Assembly: GCA_000002435.2 (NCBI GenBank)
Contig: AACB03000020.1
Strand: one strand, 5' to 3'
Source: Giardia intestinalis
Taxonomy: Eukaryota
DNA length: 6,922 nucleotides
Shown here: positions 1 through 6,922 of the stretch, piece after piece
Position numbering within the stretch: the stretch's first letter is position 1
Layout: each line of letters begins with the position of its first letter
The notes under the pieces: model-generated
The model's database searches: none
Told to the model about the DNA's origin: nothing
What the model saw: only the letters and a program-made list of their open reading frames with translations
Position numbers and translations under genes: made by a program

Positions 1-60
1 ACGAGGTGCGTCGATGGGCCAGCCTGGCCGGATGCTTTTCCCCGGTCAACGAGGTGCGTC

Positions 61-111
61 GATGGGCCAACCTGTCCTGGCATGCTGTTTCCCCGGTCAA
101 CGAGGTGCGTC
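61..111. repeat. Representative canonical type-A unit (51 bp).
   Basis: The sequence gatgggccaacctgtcctggcatgctgtttccccggtcaacgaggtgcgtc is read directly. About 89 of the ~137 units are of this type. Confidence 0.9.
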
Positions 112-819
112 GATGGGCCAACCTGTCCTGGCATGCTGTTTCCCCCGGTCAACGAGGTGCGTCGATGGGCCAACCTGTCCTGGCATGCTGTTTCCCCGGT
201 CAACGAGGTGCGTCGATGGGCCAACCTGTCCTGGCATGCTGTTCCCCGGTCAACGAGGTGTCGATGGGCCTAGCTGGCCCGGAGTCCATTTCCCCGGTCA
301 ACGAGGTGCGTCGATGGGCCAACCTGTCCTGGCATGCTGTTTCCCCGGTCAACGAGGTGCGTCGATGGGCCAAGCTGCCTGGAGTCCCATTTCCCCGGTC
401 AACGAGGTGCGTCGATGGGCCAACCTGTCCTGGCATGCTGTTTTCCCCGGTCAACGAGGTGCGTCGATGGGCCAACCTGTCCTGGCATGCTGTTTCCCCG
501 GTCAACGAGGGCGTCGATGGGCCTAGCTGGCCCGGAGTCCCATTTCCCGGTCAACGAGGTGCGTCGATGGGCCAACCTGTCCTGGCATGCTGTTTCCCCG
601 GTCAACGAGGTGCGTCGATGGGCCAACCTGTCCTGGCATGCTGTTTCCCCGGTCAACGAGGTGCGTCGATGGGCCAACTGTCCTGGCATGCTGTTTCCCC
701 GGTCAACGAGGTGCGTCGATGGGCCAACCTGTCCTGGCATGCTGTTTCCCCGGTCAACGAGGTGCGTCGATGGGCCAACCTGTCCTGGCATGCTGTTTCC
801 CCGGTCAACGAGGTGCGTC

Positions 820-870
820 GATGGGCCAGCTGTCCTGGCAGTCCCATTTCCCCGGTCAACGAGGTGCGTC
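820..870. repeat. Chimeric A/B unit. The left half of the variable segment is A-like (agctgtcctggca) and the right half is B-like (gtcccattt).
   Basis: The sequence at ~828-849 reads agctgtcctggcagtcccattt. The flanking units on both sides are canonical type A. Confidence 0.75.
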
Positions 871-972
871 GATGGGCCAACCTGTCCTGGCATGCTGTTT
901 CCCCGGTCAACGAGGTGCGTCGATGGGCCAACCTGTCCTGGCATGCTGTTTCCCCGGTCAACGAGGTGCGTC

Positions 973-1023
973 GATGGGCCTAGCTGGCCCGGAGTCCCAT
1001 TTCCCCGGTCAACGAGGTGCGTC
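973..1023. repeat. Representative canonical type-B unit (51 bp).
   Basis: The sequence gatgggcctagctggcccggagtcccatttccccggtcaacgaggtgcgtc is read directly. About 42 units are of this type. Its variable segment matches type A at about 17 of 26 aligned positions, so B is a diverged homolog of A and not an unrelated insert. Confidence 0.9.
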
Positions 1024-1430
1024 GATGGGCCAACCTGTCCTGGCATGCTGTTTCCCCGGTCAACGAGGTGCGTCGATGGGCCAACCTGTCCTGGCATGCT
1101 GTTTCCCCGGTCAACGAGGTGCGTCGATGGGCCAACCTGTCCTGGCATGCTGTTTCCCCGGTCAACGAGGTGCGTCGATGGGCCAACCTGTCCTGGCATG
1201 CTGTTTCCCCGGTCAACGAGGTGCGTCGATGGGCCAACCTGTCCTGGCATGCTGTTTCCCCGGTCAACGAGGTGCGTCGATGGGCCAACCTGTCCTGGCA
1301 TGCTGTTCCCCGGTCAACGAGGTGCGTCGATGGGCCAACCTGTCCTGGCATGCTGTTTCCCCGGTCAACGAGGTGCGTCGATGGGCCAACCTGTCCTGGC
1401 ATGCTGTTTCCCCGGTCAACGAGGTGCGTC
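1024..1430. repeat. Homogeneous run of 8 consecutive near-identical type-A units.
   Basis: Units start at ~1024, 1075, 1126, 1177, 1228, 1279, 1329 and 1380, and all carry aacctgtcctggcatgctg. The only difference seen is a single T-length change (gttcccc) in the unit at ~1279. Confidence 0.85.
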
Positions 1431-1734
1431 GATGGGCCTAGCTGGCCCGGAGTCCCATTTCCCCGGTCAACGAGGTGCGTCGATGGGCCAACCTGTCCTG
1501 GCATGCTGTTTCCCCGGTCAACGAGGTGTCGATGGGCCAACCTGTCCTGGCATGCTGTTTCCCCGGTCAACGAGGTGCGTCGATGGGCCAACCTGTCCTG
1601 GCATGCTGTTTCCCCGGTCAACGAGGTGCGTCGATGGGCCAACCTGTCCTGGCATGCTGTTTCCCCGGTCAACGAGGTGCGTCGATGGGCCAACCTGTCC
1701 TGGCATGCTGTTTCCCCGGTCAACGAGGTGCGTC

Positions 1735-2027
1735 GATGGGCCTAGCTGGCCCGGAGTCCATTTCCCCGGTCAACGAGGTGTCGATGGGCCCTGTCCTGGA
1801 GCTGTTTCCCCGGTCAACGAGGTGCGTCGATGGGCCAACCTGTCCTGGCATGCTGTTTCCCCGGTCAACGAGGTGCGTCGATGGGCCAACCTGTCCTGGC
1901 ATGCTGTTTCCCCGGTCAACGAGGTGCGTCGATGGGCCTAGCTGGCCCGGAGTCTTTTCCCCGGTCAACGAGGTAGTCGATGGGCCAAGCTGGCCCGGAG
2001 TCCTTTCCCCGGTCAACGAGGTGCGTC
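1735..2027. repeat. Heterogeneous zone of 6 units containing several variants. These are a B unit with ccat, a 46-bp chimeric unit, two A units, and two short B variants (gagtcttttcccc and aagctggcccggagtcctttcccc). Two altered cores are present (gaggtgtcgatgg and gaggtagtcgatgg).
   Basis: Unit starts at ~1735, 1783, 1829, 1880, 1931 and 1979 have lengths 48, 46, 51, 51, 48 and 49 bp. All variant sequences were read directly. Confidence 0.7.
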
Positions 2028-2631
2028 GATGGGCCAACCTGTCCTGGCATGCTGTTTCCCCGGTCAACGAGGTGCGTCGATGGGCCAACCTGTCCTGGCA
2101 TGCTGTTTCCCCGGTCAACGAGGTGCGTCGATGGGCCAACCTGTCCTGGCATGCTGTTTCCCCGGTCAACGAGGTGCGTCGATGGGCCTAGCTGGCCCGG
2201 AGTCCTTTCCCCGGTCAACGAGGTGCGTCGATGGGCCTAGCTGGCCCGGAGTCCCATTTCCCCGGTCAACGAGGTGCGTCGATGGGCCAACCTGTCCTGG
2301 CATGCTGTTTCCCCGGTCAACGAGGTGCGTCGATGGGCCAACCTGTCCTGGCATGCTGTTTCCCCGGTCAACGAGGTGCGTCGATGGGCCTAGCTGGCCC
2401 GGAGTCCCATTTCCCCGGTCAACGAGGTAGTCGATGGGCCTAGCTGGCCCGGAGTCCCATTTCCCCGGTCAACGAGGTGCGTCGATGGGCCAACCTGTCC
2501 TGGCATGCTGTTTCCCCGGTCAACGAGGTGCGTCGATGGGCCAACCTGTCCTGGCATGCTGTTTCCCCGGTCAACGAGGTGCGTCGATGGGCCAGCTGGC
2601 CCGGAGTCCTTTCCCCGGTCAACGAGGTGTC

Positions 2632-2680
2632 GATGGGCCTAGCTGGCCCGGAGCTGTTTCCCCGGTCAACGAGGTGCGTC
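2632..2680. repeat. Chimeric B/A unit. The left half is B-like (tagctggcccggag) and the right half is A-like (ctgttt).
   Basis: The sequence at ~2640-2659 reads tagctggcccggagctgttt. It is preceded by a CG-deleted core. Confidence 0.75.
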
Positions 2681-2984
2681 GATGGGCCAACCTGTCCTGG
2701 CATGCTGTTTCCCCGGTCAACGAGGTGCGTCGATGGGCCTAGCTGGCCCGGAGTCCCATTTCCCCGGTCAACGAGGTGCGTCGATGGGCCAACCTGTCCT
2801 GGCATGCTGTTTCCCCGGTCAACGAGGTGTCGATGGGCCTAGCTGGCCCGGAGTCCCATTTCCCCGGTCAACGAGGTGCGTCGATGGGCCAACCTGTCCT
2901 GGCATGCTGTTTCCCCGGTCAACGAGGTGCGTCGATGGGCCTAGCTGGCCCGGAGTCCCATTTCCCCGGTCAACGAGGTGCGTC

Positions 2985-3288
2985 GATGGGCCAACCTGTC
3001 CTGGCATGCTGTTTCCCCGGTCAACGAGGTGCGTCGATGGGCCAACCTGTCCTGGCATGCTGTTTCCCCGGTCAACGAGGTGCGTCGATGGGCCAACCTG
3101 TCCTGGCATGCTGTTTCCCCGGTCAACGAGGTGCGTCGATGGGCCAACCTGTCCTGGCATGCTGTTTCCCCGGTCAACGAGGTGCGTCGATGGGCCAACC
3201 TGTCCTGGCATGCTGTTTCCCCGGTCAACGAGGTGTCGATGGGCCAACCTGTCCTGGCATGCTGTTTCCCCGGTCAACGAGGTGCGTC
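2985..3288. repeat. Homogeneous run of 6 consecutive type-A units.
   Basis: Units start at ~2985, 3036, 3087, 3138, 3189 and 3238. The run is flanked by type-B units at ~2934 and ~3289. The unit at ~3189 carries the recurrent CG-deleted core (gaggtgtcgatgg). Confidence 0.8.
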
Positions 3289-3339
3289 GATGGGCCTAGC
3301 TGGCCCGGAGTCCCATTTCCCCGGTCAACGAGGTGCGTC

Positions 3340-3694
3340 GATGGGCCAACCTGTCCTGGCATGCTGTTTCCCCGGTCAACGAGGTGCGTCGATGGGCCAA
3401 CCTGTCCTGGCATGCTGTTCCCCGGTCAACGAGGTGCGTCGATGGGCCAACCTGTCCTGGCATGCTGTTTCCCCGGTCAACGAGGTGCGTCGATGGGCCA
3501 ACCTGTCCTGGCATGCTGTTTCCCCGGTCAACGAGGTGCGTCGATGGGCCAACCTGTCCTGGCATGCTGTTTCCCCGGTCAACGAGGTGCGTCGATGGGC
3601 CAACCTGTCCTGGCATGCTGTTCCCCGGTCAACGAGGTGCGTCGATGGGCCAACCTGTCCTGGCATGCTGTTTCCCCGGTCAACGAGGTGCGTC
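3340..3694. repeat. Homogeneous run of 7 consecutive type-A units.
   Basis: Units start at ~3340, 3391, 3441, 3492, 3543, 3594 and 3644. Two of them carry the gttcccc one-T-shorter variant. Confidence 0.8.
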
Positions 3695-4754
3695 GATGGG
3701 CCTAGCTGGCCCGGAGTCCCATTTCCCGGTCAACGAGGTGCGTCGATGGGCCAACCTGTCCTGGCATGCTGTTTCCCCGGTCAACGAGGTGCGTCGATGG
3801 GCCAACCTGTCCTGGCATGCTGTTTCCCCGGTCAACGAGGTGCGTCGATGGGCCTAGCTGGCCCGGAGTCCCATTTCCCCGGTCAACGAGGTGCGTCGAT
3901 GGGCCAACCTGTCCTGGCATGCTGTTTCCCCGGTCAACGAGGTGCGTCGATGGGCCAACCTGTCCTGGCATGCTGTTTCCCCGGTCAACGAGGTGCGTCG
4001 ATGGGCCTGCTGGCCCGGAGTCCCATTTCCCCGGTCAACGAGGTGCGTCGATGGGCCAACCTGTCCTGGCATGCTGTTTCCCCGGTCAACGAGGTGCGTC
4101 GATGGGCCAACCTGTCCTGGCATGCTGTTTCCCAGGTCAACGAGGTGCGTCGATGGGCCAACCTGTCCTGGCATGCTGTTTCCCCGGTCAACGAGGTGCG
4201 TCGATGGGCCAACCTGTCCTGGCAGCTGTTTCCCCGGTCAACGAGGTGCGTCGATGGGCCAACTGTCCTGGCATGCTGTTTCCCCGGTCAACGAGGTGCG
4301 TCGATGGGCCAACCTGTCCTGGCATGCTGTTTCCCCGGTCAACGAGGTGCGTCGATGGGCCAACCTGTCCTGGCATGCTGTTTCCCCGGTCAACGAGGTG
4401 CGTCGATGGGCCAGCTGGCCCGGAGTCCCATTTCCCCGGTCAACGAGGTGTCGATGGCCTAGCTGGCCCGGAGTCCCATTTCCCCGGTCAACGAGGTGCG
4501 TCGATGGGCCAACCTGTCCTGGCATGCTGTTTCCCCGGTCAACGAGGTGCGTCGATGGGCCAACCTGTCCTGGCATGCTGTTTCCCCGGTCAACGAGGTG
4601 CGTCGATGGGCCTAGCTGGCCCGGTCCCATTTCCCCGGTCAACGAGGTGCGTCGATGGGCCAACCTGTCCTGGCATGCTGTTTCCCCGGTCAACGAGGTG
4701 CGTCGATGGGCCAACCTGTCCTGGCATGCTGTTTCCCGGTCAACGAGGTGCGTC

Positions 4755-5006
4755 GATGGGCCTAGCTGGCCCGGAGTCCCATTTCCCCGGTCAACGAGGT
4801 ATGTCGATGGGCCAGCTGGCCCGGAGTCCCATTTCCCCGGTCAACGAGGTGCGTCGATGGGCCAGCTGGCCCGGAGTCTTTCCCCGGTCAACGAGGTGCG
4901 TCGATGGGCCTAGCTGGCCCGGAGTCCCATGTTTCCCCGGTCAACGAGGTGCGTCGATGGGCCTAGCTGGCCCGGAGTCCCATTTCCCCGGTCAACGAGG
5001 TGCGTC
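4755..5006. repeat. Cluster of 5 consecutive B-family units, which is the longest B-run in the window. It includes B-prime units (gatgggccagctgg, lacking the T), a short variant (gagtctttcccc) and a unit with a G insertion (cccatgtttcccc).
   Basis: Units start at ~4755, 4806, 4856, 4903 and 4955, and all carry (t)agctggcccggag. The core at ~4797-4810 reads gaggtatgtcgatgg instead of gaggtgcgtcgatgg. Confidence 0.75.
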
Positions 5007-5815
5007 GATGGGCCAACCTGTCCTGGCATGCTGTTTCCCCGGTCAACGAGGTGCGTCGATGGGCCAACCTGTCCTGGCATGCTGTTTCCCCGGTCAACGA
5101 GGTGCGTCGATGGGCCTAGCTGGCCCGGAGTCCCATTTCCCCGGTCAACGAGGTGCGTCGATGGGCCAACCTGTCCTGGCATGCTGTTTCCCCGGTCAAC
5201 GAGGTGCGTCGATGGGCCAACCTGTCCTGGCATGCTGTTTCCCCGGTCAACGAGGTGCGTCGATGGGCCTAGCTGGCCCGGAGTCCCATTTCCCCGGTCA
5301 ACGAGGTGCGTCGATGGGCCAACCTGTCCTGGCATGCTGTTTCCCCGGTCAACGAGGTGCGTCGATGGGCCTAGCTGGCCCGGAGTCCTTTCCCCGGTCA
5401 ACGAGGTGTCGATGGGCCTAGCTGGCCCGGAGTCCCATTTCCCCGGTCAACGAGGTGTCGATGGGCCAACCTGTCCTGGCATGCTGTTTCCCCGGTCAAC
5501 GAGGTGCGTCGATGGGCCTAGCTGGCCCGGAGTCCCATTTTCCCCGGTCAACGAGGTGCGTCGATGGGCCAACCTGTCCTGGCATGCTGTTTCCCCGGTC
5601 AACGAGGTGCGTCGATGGGCCAACCTGTCCTGGCATGCTGTTTCCCCGGTCAACGAGGTGCGTCGATGGGCCAACCTGTCCTGGCATGCTGTTTCCCCGG
5701 TCAACGAGGTGCGTCGATGGGCCAACCTGTCCTGGCATGCTGTTTCCCCGGTCAACGAGGTGTCGATGGGCCTAGCTGTCCCGGAGTCCCATTTCCCCGG
5801 TCAACGAGGTGCGTC

Positions 5816-5863
5816 GATGGGCCTAACCTGGCCTGGAGCTTTCCCCGGTCAACGAGGTGCGTC
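5816..5863. repeat. Divergent or chimeric unit (taacctggcctggagcttt) that mixes an A-like aacctg with a B-like g(c)ctggag.
   Basis: Read directly. The unit is 48 bp long. It is flanked by a B variant (tagctgtcccggag, a G-to-T change) on the left and a canonical A unit on the right. Confidence 0.65.
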
Positions 5864-5965
5864 GATGGGCCAACCTGTCCTGGCATGCTGTTTCCCCGGT
5901 CAACGAGGTGCGTCGATGGGCCAACCTGTCCTGGCATGCTGTTTCCCCGGTCAACGAGGTGCGTC

Positions 5966-6012
5966 GATGGGCCAGCTGGCCCGGATGCTTTCCCCGGTCA
6001 ACGAGGTGCGTC
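5966..6012. repeat. Chimeric B-prime/A unit (agctggcccggatgcttt). It is nearly identical to the first full unit in the window at 13-60 (agcctggccggatgctttt).
   Basis: Both variable segments were read directly. The same chimera type therefore occurs twice, about 5.95 kb apart. Confidence 0.7.
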
Positions 6013-6715
6013 GATGGGCCAACCTGTCCTGGCATGCTGTTTCCCCGGTCAACGAGGTATGTCGATGGGCCTAGCTGGCCCGGAGTCCCATTTCCCCGGT
6101 CAACGAGGTGCGTCGATGGGCCAACCTGTCCTGGCATGCTGTTTCCCCGGTCAACGAGGTGCGTCGATGGGCCAACCTGTCCTGGCATGCTGTTTCCCCG
6201 GTCAACGAGGTGCGTCGATGGGCCAGCTGGCCCGGCCCATTTCCCCGGTCAACGAGGTGCGTCGATGGGCCTAGCTGGCCCGGAGTCCATTTCCCCGGTC
6301 AACGAGGTGTCGATGGGCCTAGCTGGCCCGGAGTCTTTCCCCGGTCAACGAGGTGCGTCGATGGGCCAACCTGTCCTGGCATGCTGTTTCCCCGGTCAAC
6401 GAGGTGCGTCGATGGGCCAACCTGTCCTGGCATGCTGTTTCCCCGGTCAACGAGGTGCGTCGATGGGCCAACCTGTCCTGGCAGCTGTTTCCCCGGTCAA
6501 CGAGGTGCGTCGATGGGCCTAGCTGGCCCGGAGTCCCATTTCCCCGGTCAACGAGGTGCGTCGATGGGCCAACCTGTCCTGGCATGCTGTTTCCCCGGTC
6601 AACGAGGTGCGTCGATGGGCCAACCTGTCCTGGCATGCTGTTTCCCCGGTCAACGAGGTGCGTCGATGGGCCAACCTGTCCTGGCATGCTGTTTCCCCGG
6701 TCAACGAGGTGCGTC

Positions 6716-6866
6716 GATGGGCCTAGCTGGCCCGGAGTCCCATTTCCCCGGTCAACGAGGTGTCGATGGGCCTAGCTGGCCCGGAGTCCCATTTCCCCGG
6801 TCAACGAGGTGCGTCGATGGGCCTAGCTGGCCCGGAGTCCCATTTCCCCGGTCAACGAGGTGCGTC
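6716..6866. repeat. Run of 3 consecutive canonical type-B units at the window end.
   Basis: Units start at ~6716, 6765 and 6816, each carrying tagctggcccggagtcccattt. A CG-deleted core precedes the unit at 6765. Confidence 0.8.
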
Positions 6867-6922
6867 GATGGGCCAACCTGTCCTGGCATGCTGTTTCCCC
6901 GGTCAACGAGGTGCGTCGATGG

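What the first reader, a model, noticed from the sequence alone, without database searches (positions are those of the whole stretch)
820..870. Chimeric A/B units place recombination breakpoints inside the 20-bp variable segment, and one chimera type recurs 5.9 kb apart
At least six units switch between the A and B subfamilies partway through the variable segment. The unit at 820-870 runs A to B, 2632-2680 runs B to A, and 1783-1828 is a 46-bp A-like unit with an agctg insertion. The unit at 5816-5863 has a mixed character, and 13-60 and 5966-6012 are B-prime to A chimeras. The units at 13-60 and 5966-6012 carry essentially the same chimera (agc(c)tggcc(c)ggatgcttt). This implies that a chimeric unit arose once and was then itself propagated by unequal exchange or conversion. 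This is direct evidence that the two subfamilies recombine within the array and are not evolving as separate blocks.
Basis: seen in the sequence. Interest (0 to 1): 0.5.

Follow-up and report, generated by a model that had tools for sequence, protein, structure and literature searches.

The report
Mosaic units in Giardia coding repeat
The window is not an anonymous satellite but a very long copy of a 17-amino-acid coding repeat from the tail of a Giardia NEK kinase gene; a few units do mix the two repeat types, but every one also carries frame-breaking deletions, so they may be long-read assembly errors as easily as real recombinants.

Summary
The whole 6,922-bp window is one array of 137 units of 51 bp. 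There are two unit types, A (91 units, 74 exact) and B (45 units, 15 exact), which differ at 9 sites.

The mosaic units are real in the sequence and exceed chance: 6 units fit a one-switch chimera better than A or B, against 0.45 in simulation. None is a clean in-register recombinant. One named unit (1768-1811) is simply A with deletions.

Read on the minus strand, the unit encodes DRGNSMPGQVGPSTHLV (A) or DRGNGTPGQLGPSTHLV (B). It is homologous to in-frame C-terminal repeats of a NEK Ser/Thr kinase in Giardia assemblages E and B. Of 33 orthologous differences, 25 fall at third codon positions. In the window, however, 45 of 137 units are out of frame.

Non-canonical variation is 86 deleted, 7 inserted and 18 substituted bases. 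Mosaic units carry the highest indel load. A/B order is random, and recurrent variants share no flanks.

Verdict: this is ordinary minisatellite-type behaviour. Exchange between the types is plausible, especially the synonymous A patches in B units. Propagation by unequal exchange is unsupported, and the conspicuous chimeras may be consensus artefacts. Raw reads are needed to decide.

The parts
1..6922 (-). Tandem array of 137 units of a 51-bp (17-codon) repeat. The homologous reading frame is on the minus strand. It runs off both ends of the window.
   Evidence: TRF; anchors. Homology to the Giardia NEK kinase C-terminal repeats. Third-codon-position bias, 25 of 33 differences, p=7.5e-7.
44..94 (-). 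Example of a canonical A unit (74 exact copies). Minus-strand peptide: DRGNSMPGQVGPSTHLV.
956..1006 (-). Example of a canonical B unit (15 exact copies). Minus-strand peptide: DRGNGTPGQLGPSTHLV.
803..853 (-). A B-A-B mosaic: an 11-nt A tract, CTGTCCTGGCA, inside a B-like unit, plus a +1 and a -1 indel. The in-register form would still encode the B peptide, because the A states fall at two synonymous sites.
2617..2663 (-). B 5' half plus an A-derived 3' half (GGAGCTGTTT). It is a deletion-only derivative of a one-switch chimera and also has the 2-nt core deletion.
1768..1811 (-). It is A with 7 bases deleted. It is not a chimera and has no insertion. It shares GGAGCTGTTT and the core deletion with unit 52.
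5799..5846 (-). A heavily altered unit, 6 edits from A and 7 from B. No simple mosaic explains it.
1..43 (-). B-like 5' half plus an A-derived 3' half (GGATGCTTTT).
5949..5995 (-). Same junction, CCGGATGCTTT, as unit 0. It is a deletion-only derivative of a one-switch B-to-A chimera.
347..396 (-). Unit 7. B-like, with A states at sites 1 and 10 (both synonymous in the minus frame) and one deletion.
1963..2010 (-). Unit 39. B-like, with an A state at site 1 (synonymous). It also has the TAG core variant and a CA deletion.
5750..5798 (-). Unit 114. B-like, with an A state at site 7 (synonymous GGC>GGA) and the 2-nt core deletion.

Best explanation
What it is (shown). The window is a very long array, at least 137 units, of a 51-bp, 17-codon repeat. 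The repeat is homologous to the in-frame C-terminal repeats of a NEK-family Ser/Thr kinase gene of Giardia duodenalis. The coding strand is the window's minus strand. A and B are two old variants of the repeat peptide, NSMPGQV and NGTPGQL. Both variants are present in assemblages E and B.

How the array evolves (inferred). Units are homogenised by gene conversion or unequal exchange. The junctions resolve almost always in the 32-bp block that is identical in A and B. The 19-bp variable block is therefore passed on as an intact cassette, and the cassettes become shuffled into a random order.

The mosaic units (inferred). At most about 9 of 137 units mix A and B states, and they are of two sorts.
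1. Small A-state patches at synonymous sites in B units (units 7, 16, 39, 114). These are the best candidates for real short-tract conversion.
2. The conspicuous B-5'/A-3' units (0, 52, 118) and the heavily deleted units (35, 115). These carry 4-7 frame-breaking edits each. They are most likely local failures of long-read consensus at units of the minority type. So are most of the 86 deleted bases in the array.
For: Identity:
- An exhaustive phmmer search with the minus-strand ORF hit the Giardia assemblage B kinase KWX12190.1 at 74% identity over three repeats.
- The repeats lie inside annotated ORFs in L132, L133, L134 and in P15 locus L135.
- The window A peptide is identical to the P15 A peptide, and all 7 nucleotide differences are synonymous.
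- Pooled orthologous differences by codon position are 5/3/25, p=7.5e-7.

Cassette behaviour:
- A and B are 100% identical in the 32-bp block but differ at 9 of 19 sites in the variable block.
- Unit order is random.
- There are no clean chimeras among 137 units.

Error reading:
- The edit spectrum is 86 deleted, 7 inserted and 18 substituted bases.
- 31 of 48 non-canonical units are deletion-only derivatives of A or B.
- 45 of 137 units are not 51 bp long, and only 5 of those are 48 bp. There is therefore no preference for frame-preserving lengths, in a repeat that is under purifying selection elsewhere.
- B-like units carry 1.8 edits per unit, against 0.34 for A-like units.
- Mosaic-flagged units carry 3.2 residual edits, against 1.34 in other B-like units (p=7e-4).
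- 7 of 9 mosaic units are B-nearest with A patches. That is the direction expected if reads of the majority type contaminate the pile-up.
- Public long-read Giardia assemblies come from PacBio RS II or MinION reads. Their authors report residual indels and frameshifts (PMC7000408; PMC10132058). Deletion-biased systematic nanopore errors are documented (PMC11927395).

Real short conversion:
- The substitution-type A patches match the A state exactly and are all synonymous.
Against: - The source record and its reads were not found, so 'error' is inferred from the spectrum alone.
- Deleted bases are not enriched in homopolymers. 37% lie in runs of 2 or more, and about 50% of positions are in such runs. 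This is not the classic long-read error profile.
- The recurrent core variants (TGCG to TG, TATG or TAG) are linked to the B type 12 nt away: 13 of 45 B-like units against 4 of 91 A-like units, p=1.2e-4. Purely local-context errors do not predict this linkage.
- The same odd junctions recur: CCGGATGCTTT twice, and GGAGCTGTTT in units 35 and 52.
- Damaged B units are not preferentially the isolated ones (string).
- The P15 B peptide is NGTPGQV. This shows that the two halves of the variable block can be uncoupled in nature.
- The array lies at the extreme C-terminus. After a first real frameshift the rest could be untranslated and free to collect real indels.
Confidence: 0.5

Rival explanations
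1. All mosaic units are genuine products of recombination or gene conversion between A and B units, with breakpoints inside the variable block. The 0/118 type arose once and was then copied.
For: - Mosaic units exceed the independent-edit null.
- Deletion errors cannot create bases of the other type.
- Units 0 and 118 share a unique 11-mer.
- Units 35 and 52 share both the core deletion and GGAGCTGTTT on different 5' halves.
- Core variants are linked to the B type, as real haplotypes would be.
- GC-rich minisatellites are known to mutate by complex conversion, with SDSA proposed as the mechanism (PMC2599865).
Against: - No clean in-register chimera exists, although A and B are colinear and are flanked by 32 bp of identity.
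- Every candidate is 1-7 bases short, or has compensating indels.
- Mosaic units carry an excess of other edits.
- No duplicated flanks or blocks are present.
- The pattern is asymmetric: B recipients only.
- Units 0 and 118 differ from each other at three positions within 24 nt.
Confidence: 0.3
2. The array as written is correct. It is an untranslated, decaying expansion: a non-coding minisatellite derived from the coding repeat, or 3' sequence lying beyond a first real frameshift. The indels and the mixed units are real neutral mutations.
For: - The longest minus-strand ORF is only 300 aa.
- Unit lengths show no preference for multiples of 3.
- The array sits at the very end of the ORF in its relatives, so truncation would be tolerated.
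- Deletions are not homopolymer-biased.
Against: - About 93 indel bases against 18 substituted bases is the inverse of the usual neutral spectrum. That usual spectrum is stated from general knowledge, not tested here.
- 74 A units are still identical, so decay would have to be almost wholly by small deletions and concentrated in B units.
Confidence: 0.15
3. The mixed units are neither recombinants nor errors. They are surviving evolutionary intermediates between A and B, or independent point mutations that happen to match the other type.
For: - Single-site cases (units 39 and 114) need only one substitution.
- P15 and assemblage B carry intermediate combinations such as NGTPGQV.
Against: - Multi-site tracts (the 11-nt tract in unit 16, the 8-nt tract in unit 52) are very unlikely by independent mutation. 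Simulation gives 0.02 such units, against 2 observed.
- The 32-bp block is fully homogenised between A and B. Old intermediates would therefore have had to escape the same homogenisation.
Confidence: 0.05

Closest known systems
C-terminal 17-residue repeats of a Giardia duodenalis NEK Ser/Thr kinase (P15 'Kinase, NEK' = P0064; assemblage B KWX12190.1 = P0003 and ESU43930.1 = P0061)
   Same: - The unit is the same 51 bp and is readable in the same frame.
- The A peptide is identical to the P15 A peptide.
- Both the A-like (NSM) and B-like (NG[T/G]) types are present.
- DNA identity is 86% to P15 and 76% to assemblage B for the A unit, with differences mostly at third codon positions.
   Different: - Those arrays have only 2.5-6.5 units, in strict higher-order patterns: (A,B)x3 or (B,A,A)x2.
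- They lie inside an ORF.
- The window has at least 137 units in random order, a third of them out of frame, and no flanking gene is visible.
- The source lineage is neither P15 nor assemblage B. Assemblage A is only an inference from the distances.
GC-rich minisatellites with interspersed variant repeats (MVR-mapped loci such as MS32 and CEB1)
   Same: - The unit falls within the 9-100 bp range and the sequence is GC-rich (64%).
- Two similar unit types are randomly interspersed along the array (PMC2363947 abstract; PMC2599865).
- Conversion-type mutation is proposed for such loci.
- Unit number appears to differ between isolates.
   Different: - The classic MVR loci differ by one or a few bases per unit and are non-coding.
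- Here the types differ at 9 of 19 sites and the unit is derived from coding sequence.
- Neither germline conversion nor polymorphism was tested here.
Concerted evolution of satellite DNA by unequal exchange and gene conversion
   Same: - Lineage-specific synonymous states are shared by all units within a genome.
- The array is homogeneous: 74 A units are identical.
- Exchange within repeats is expected (PMC5411766).
   Different: - There is no higher-order repeat.
- There is no local clustering of variants.
- There are no duplicated blocks.
Residual consensus errors of long-read assemblies in tandem repeats
   Same: - The discrepancy spectrum is dominated by deletions.
- Frameshifts occur in sequence that is otherwise coding.
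- The minority unit type is the worst affected.
- Background: PMC11927395; PMC7000408; PMC6868369 abstract.
   Different: - There is no homopolymer enrichment.
- Variants are linked to a unit type 12 nt away.
- Reads were not available to test this directly.

Membership tests
Giardia NEK kinase C-terminal coding repeat | Unit length is a multiple of 3, and one frame is open in every unit type | tested here: met
   51 bp is 17 codons. Minus frame 2 is open in both A and B.
Giardia NEK kinase C-terminal coding repeat | Sequence homology of the unit to repeats that lie inside the annotated kinase ORFs | tested here: met
   phmmer E=7e-14 and 74% identity to P0003. The A peptide is identical to the P15 A peptide.
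Giardia NEK kinase C-terminal coding repeat | Substitution pattern of a translated sequence (excess of third-position, synonymous changes) | tested here: met
   Differences by codon position are 5/3/25, p=7.5e-7. Window A against P15 A is 7 of 7 synonymous.
Giardia NEK kinase C-terminal coding repeat | Continuous reading frame through the array, joined to a kinase domain | tested here: not met
   45 of 137 units are not 51 bp long. The longest minus-strand ORF is 300 aa. No flank lies within the window. If the indels are errors, this feature would be met.
Interspersed-variant (MVR-type) minisatellite | Tandem units of 9-100 bp, with two or more variant types interspersed along the array | tested here: met
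   51-bp unit; 91 A-like and 45 B-like units; runs test z=0.35.
Interspersed-variant (MVR-type) minisatellite | Hypervariable unit number and order between individuals | tested here: inconclusive
   Unit numbers are 2.5 and 6.5 in two assemblage B assemblies, 6.5 in P15, and at least 137 here. Short-read, Sanger or 454 assemblies may have collapsed the array.
Interspersed-variant (MVR-type) minisatellite | Mutation by gene conversion or SDSA | not testable with these tools
   This needs pedigrees, single-molecule data or population data.
Recombinant (chimeric) repeat units from homologous exchange | Units combine contiguous tracts of both parent types more often than chance | tested here: met
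   6 units against 0.45 expected (gain of at least 1 edit). 2 units against 0.02 expected (gain of at least 2 edits).
Recombinant (chimeric) repeat units from homologous exchange | In-register junctions with no residual changes, as expected between colinear units | tested here: not met
   No clean chimera exists among 137 units. Residual edits are 2-5 in every candidate.
Recombinant (chimeric) repeat units from homologous exchange | Copies propagated by unequal exchange share flanking units | tested here: not met
   No repeated blocks beyond chance. The neighbours of units 0 and 118 differ from the second unit on (string).
Non-coding satellite DNA | No protein-coding constraint on the unit | tested here: not met
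   Third-position bias, and the peptide is conserved across three Giardia lineages.
Long-read consensus artefact | Variants absent from raw or accurate reads | not testable with these tools
   The source record was not found. Only indirect spectrum evidence is available.

The most novel reading that the evidence does not exclude
The indels are errors and the array really is translated. In that case a Giardia NEK kinase carries a C-terminal tail of more than 2,300 residues made of 17-residue repeats. Two variants, conserved across assemblages, are strung in an essentially random binary order. That would make it a hypervariable coding minisatellite, with three possible consequences. It could serve as a digital (MVR-like) strain barcode. 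It could give a variable protein tail. The rare hybrid units would then record conversion tracts only a few bases long.
Probability: 0.25. Interest if true: 0.45.

Novelty: new member of a known kind. Interest (0 to 1): 0.2.

Why it matters
For the finding as posed, it matters little. Hybrid repeats and interspersed variants are standard behaviour for minisatellites and satellites, and here they cannot be separated from consensus error.

The useful results lie elsewhere:
- The 'satellite' is a coding-type repeat of a Giardia NEK kinase.
- Its two 'subfamilies' are old peptide variants shared by at least three lineages.
- The array appears to be vastly longer here than in the short-read, Sanger or 454 assemblies. 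Those assemblies may therefore be collapsed, and their gene models truncated or mis-framed. P15 is an example.
- A random two-state unit order over 137 units would make a highly informative typing locus, if it is real.

Tried and rejected
Searches that found no relatives:
- Exact-pattern scans of prokaryotic genomes, viral contigs and metagenome contigs with conserved 20-25-mers found nothing.
- The gapped 11-mer pair pattern returned 131 loci. All are chance matches of 15 nt or less.
- Plasmids and phages gave no match.
- Sequence strings and peptide strings were not found in any paper.
- Rfam gave no match.

Protein searches:
- The word-indexed protein search failed twice: plus-strand ORF and minus-strand ORF. 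Only the exhaustive HMMER search found the Giardia relative.
- Pfam hits on plus-frame ORFs (EGF2_RECK, HTH_Tnp_ISL3, CBM32, Lsr2) have no passing stretch. I rejected them as additive repeat noise.
- Exact look-up of window ORFs did not find the source contig.

Ideas rejected or left undone:
- CRISPR-like array: rejected, because there are only two 'spacer' types and the period is 51.
- Higher-order repeat or segmental duplication inside the array: rejected.
- The codon-phase signal from the A-versus-B comparison alone was only marginal (p=0.017 before allowing for three phases; permutation p=0.16). It became convincing only with the orthologues.
- I considered simulating mixed pile-ups. I did not run it, because with standard scoring A and B reads align in register without gaps. 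A simple majority vote would therefore not reproduce the deletions, and the result would depend on the polisher.

Full report
ANATOMY

The whole window is a single head-to-tail array with period 51 and 137.3 copies. I phased it on the invariant 11-mer GGTCAACGAGG, which occurs 137 times.

Two unit types dominate:
- A = GGTCAACGAGGTGCGTCGATGGGCC|AACCTGTCCTGGCATGCTG|TTTCCCC, with 74 exact copies.
- B = ...GGGCC|TAGCTGGCCCGGAGTCCCA|TTTCCCC, with 15 exact copies.

They are colinear. They differ by 9 substitutions within 19 bp and are identical in the other 32 bp. Counting near-copies, there are 91 A-like and 45 B-like units.

CHECK OF THE OBSERVATION

It has an 11-nt A tract inside a B-like unit. 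The best fit is B-A-B rather than A to B, and it has a +1 and a -1 indel.
- Unit 52 (2617-2663) is B to A, with four bases missing.
- Unit 35 (1768-1811) is not a chimera and has no insertion. It is a subsequence of A with seven bases deleted.
- Unit 115 (5799-5846) is equidistant from A and B (6 and 7 edits). No simple chimera fits it.
- Units 0 (1-43) and 118 (5949-5995) share the junction CCGGATGCTTT, which occurs nowhere else in the window. They differ from each other at three single-base run lengths.

I simulated independent edits, using the observed number and kinds of edits.
- Units fitting a one-switch chimera better than A or B: 0.45 expected, 6 observed.
- Units with a gain of at least 2 edits: 0.02 expected, 2 observed.

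The mixture of A and B states is therefore real in the sequence. However, not one of the 137 units is a clean in-register chimera. None of the 87 canonical A 5' halves is joined to a B 3' half.

WHAT THE ARRAY IS

Nothing related turned up in several searches:
- prokaryotic, viral or metagenome contigs;
- plasmids or phages;
- papers;
- Rfam.

The plus-strand ORFs have no homologues.

An exhaustive HMMER search with the minus-strand ORF hit one relevant protein. It is a Ser/Thr kinase of Giardia duodenalis assemblage B, KWX12190.1. Its C-terminus reads ...APSTHLV DRGNSMPGQM TPSAHLV DRGNGGPGQL APSTHLV GFYNSII*.

At the DNA level this is a 51-bp repeat of 2.5 units inside the ORF (L132 12533-12657).
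- A second assemblage B assembly has 6.5 units arranged as a perfect (A-like, B-like) x3 (L133).
- The orthologue in assemblage E, 'Kinase, NEK [Giardia lamblia P15]', has B-A-A-B-A-A (L135).

The window's minus-strand peptides are DRGNSMPGQVGPSTHLV (A) and DRGNGTPGQLGPSTHLV (B).
- The A peptide is identical to the P15 A peptide, and all 7 DNA differences are synonymous third positions.
- Pooled over the four orthologous comparisons, differences fall 5/3/25 on codon positions 1/2/3 (p=7.5e-7).

The unit is therefore a coding repeat under purifying selection. The A/B (SM versus GT/GG) dimorphism predates the split of three Giardia lineages.

The window's lineage is neither P15 nor assemblage B. 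Its A unit is 86% identical to P15 and 76% identical to assemblage B. Assemblage A is my inference from those distances, not a result.

Within a genome, A and B units share lineage-specific synonymous states: codon 1 is GAC or GAT, and codons 11-13 are GGC CCA TCG or GGT CCG TCC. This means the 32-bp block is homogenised across the two types while the cassette stays dimorphic.

ARRANGEMENT

The A/B order is indistinguishable from random.
- The runs test gives z=0.35, and no autocorrelation exceeds 0.2 up to lag 60.
- The longest repeated block of unit types is 13 units, against 14.2 +/- 2.0 in shuffles.
- At the level of exact sequence the longest repeated block is 7 units, against 6.9 +/- 1.7.
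- Recurrent minor variants are 21-71 units apart and never adjacent.

There is no sign of the duplicated blocks that unequal exchange would leave. The second-right neighbours of units 0 and 118 already differ. Randomly interspersed variant units are the known state of many minisatellites (PMC2363947; PMC2599865).

REAL OR ARTEFACT

Non-canonical variation amounts to 86 deleted, 7 inserted and 18 substituted bases. Of the 48 non-canonical units, 31 are deletion-only derivatives of A or B, and 3 more are deletion-only derivatives of a one-switch chimera.

Forty-five of 137 units are not 51 bp long, and only 5 of those are 48 bp. In a repeat whose peptide is conserved across assemblages, frameshifts every third unit, with no preference for multiples of three, point to one of two things: technical indels, or an untranslated array.

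Edits are unevenly distributed.
- B-like units carry 1.8 edits per unit, against 0.34 for A-like units. The B variable block is the hottest region.
- Mosaic-flagged units carry 3.2 residual edits after the best mosaic fit. Other B-like units carry 1.34 (p=7e-4), and other non-canonical B-like units carry 2.2 (p=0.02).
- Seven of nine mosaic units are B-nearest with A-state patches, and almost no A units carry B patches.

This is what I would expect if reads of the majority type contaminate the pile-up at minority-type units. That is plausible in an array whose only anchoring is a random A/B code.

Public long-read Giardia assemblies are built from PacBio RS II or MinION reads. Their authors report residual indels and frameshifts (PMC7000408; PMC10132058). 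The WB assembly has 33 small contigs 'enriched with repeats'. I could not show that the window is one of those contigs. Deletion-biased systematic nanopore errors are documented (PMC11927395).

Several observations argue against a pure-error reading.
- Deleted bases are not enriched in homopolymers (37% in runs of 2 or more).
- The recurrent core variants (TGCG to TG x12, TATG x2, TAG x2) are linked to the B type 12 nt away: 13 of 45 B-like units against 4 of 91 A-like units, p=1.2e-4.
- The same junctions recur.
- The substitution-type A patches in B units (sites 1, 7 and 10 in units 7, 16, 39 and 114) match the A state exactly. All are synonymous in the coding frame. This is what genuine short-tract conversion in a constrained repeat would look like.
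- The P15 B peptide is NGTPGQV. This shows that the two halves of the variable block have been uncoupled in evolution.

MECHANISM, AS BEST SUPPORTED

Shown:
- The unit is a coding-type repeat.
- Two old cassettes exist.
- The 32-bp block is fully homogenised.
- The order of unit types is random.
- Hybrids are few and none is clean.

Inferred:
- Exchange between units (conversion or SDSA, or unequal sister exchange) resolves almost always within the 32 bp of uninterrupted identity. In the variable block a mismatch occurs every 2-3 bp, which would disfavour resolution there. The cassettes therefore move as wholes.
- 'Breakpoints inside the variable segment' are the rare visible exception, not the rule. 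They are visible only because that block holds all the markers.
- Of the mixed units, the small synonymous patches are the best candidates for real conversion. The gross, deletion-laden ones are more likely consensus failures.

My probabilities are about 0.5 for this composite, 0.3 for all mosaics being real recombinants, 0.15 for a correct but untranslated decaying array, and 0.05 for intermediates or coincident mutation.

COMPARISON AND NOVELTY

The array behaves like an MVR-type minisatellite and shows satellite-like concerted evolution. By homology it belongs with the C-terminal repeats of a Giardia NEK kinase. Hybrid repeat units are a known phenomenon. Neither the peptide nor the DNA strings occur in the searched literature, so the locus itself seems undescribed.

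Interest in the finding as posed is low. The side results may be worth a note to Giardia genomicists: the coding identity, the apparent expansion to at least 137 units, and the possibly collapsed or mis-framed public gene models.

Noticed in passing
L135 about 5680-5700 (P15, GCA_000182665.1 ACVC01000096.1) and protein P0064: The annotated P15 NEK kinase ends in ...DRGNGHRARWVRPRTSLIGETAC... This is the same repeat read out of frame, after a 1-nt deletion (GGG>GG) in the fourth unit. With that base restored, the ORF would end GQVGCF* two codons after the array. This is probably a homopolymer sequencing error in a public gene model.
   Followed up: partly
L132 12533-12657 versus L133 about 5533-5860: Two assemblage B assemblies carry 2.5 and 6.5 units of the repeat in the same kinase gene (894-aa and 962-aa products). 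This is either real length polymorphism or collapse of the array during assembly.
   Followed up: partly
window 1-6922: The A:B ratio is 91:45, or 2.02:1. That is the same 2:1 ratio as the strict (B,A,A) trimer in P15. Here, however, the order is statistically random (runs z=0.35, and lag-3 autocorrelation is only 0.05).
   Followed up: yes
window; e.g. 259-266, 2626-2632, 5405-5411 (12 units in all): A recurrent 2-nt deletion, GGTGCGTCG>GGTGTCG, occurs in the conserved block. Two further variants occur there: GGTATGTCG (units at 4789 and 6047) and GGTAGTCG (units at 1963 and 2417). All four substitution variants and 8 of the 12 deletions lie in B-like units (Fisher p=1.2e-4). Local-context sequencing error does not explain this linkage.
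   Followed up: partly
window units versus L135 and L133 units: Lineage-specific synonymous states (codon 1 GAC or GAT; codons 11-13 GGC CCA TCG or GGT CCG TCC) are shared by A and B units within a genome. The SM versus GT/GG cassette stays dimorphic in all three lineages. This indicates concerted evolution of the flanks with a long-lived two-state core.
   Followed up: partly
window 1768-1811 and 2617-2663: Units 35 and 52 share both the core 2-nt deletion and the unusual 3' end GGAGCTGTTT, but have opposite 5' variable halves (A-like and B). This looks like a 10-nt swap in the middle of the unit, or the same two errors occurring twice.
   Followed up: partly
window plus-strand ORFs, e.g. 334-1941 and 2978-4462: Sub-threshold Pfam hits (EGF2_RECK, HTH_Tnp_ISL3, CBM32, Lsr2 DNA-binding) arise by summing weak matches over repeats read in non-homologous frames. 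None has a stretch that passes on its own.
   Followed up: yes
L001-L131: All 131 loci fetched with the gapped 11-mer pattern are chance matches of 15 nt or less and are unrelated to the window. L057, L067, L111 and L117 hold other tandem repeats that happen to contain the 11-mer.
   Followed up: partly
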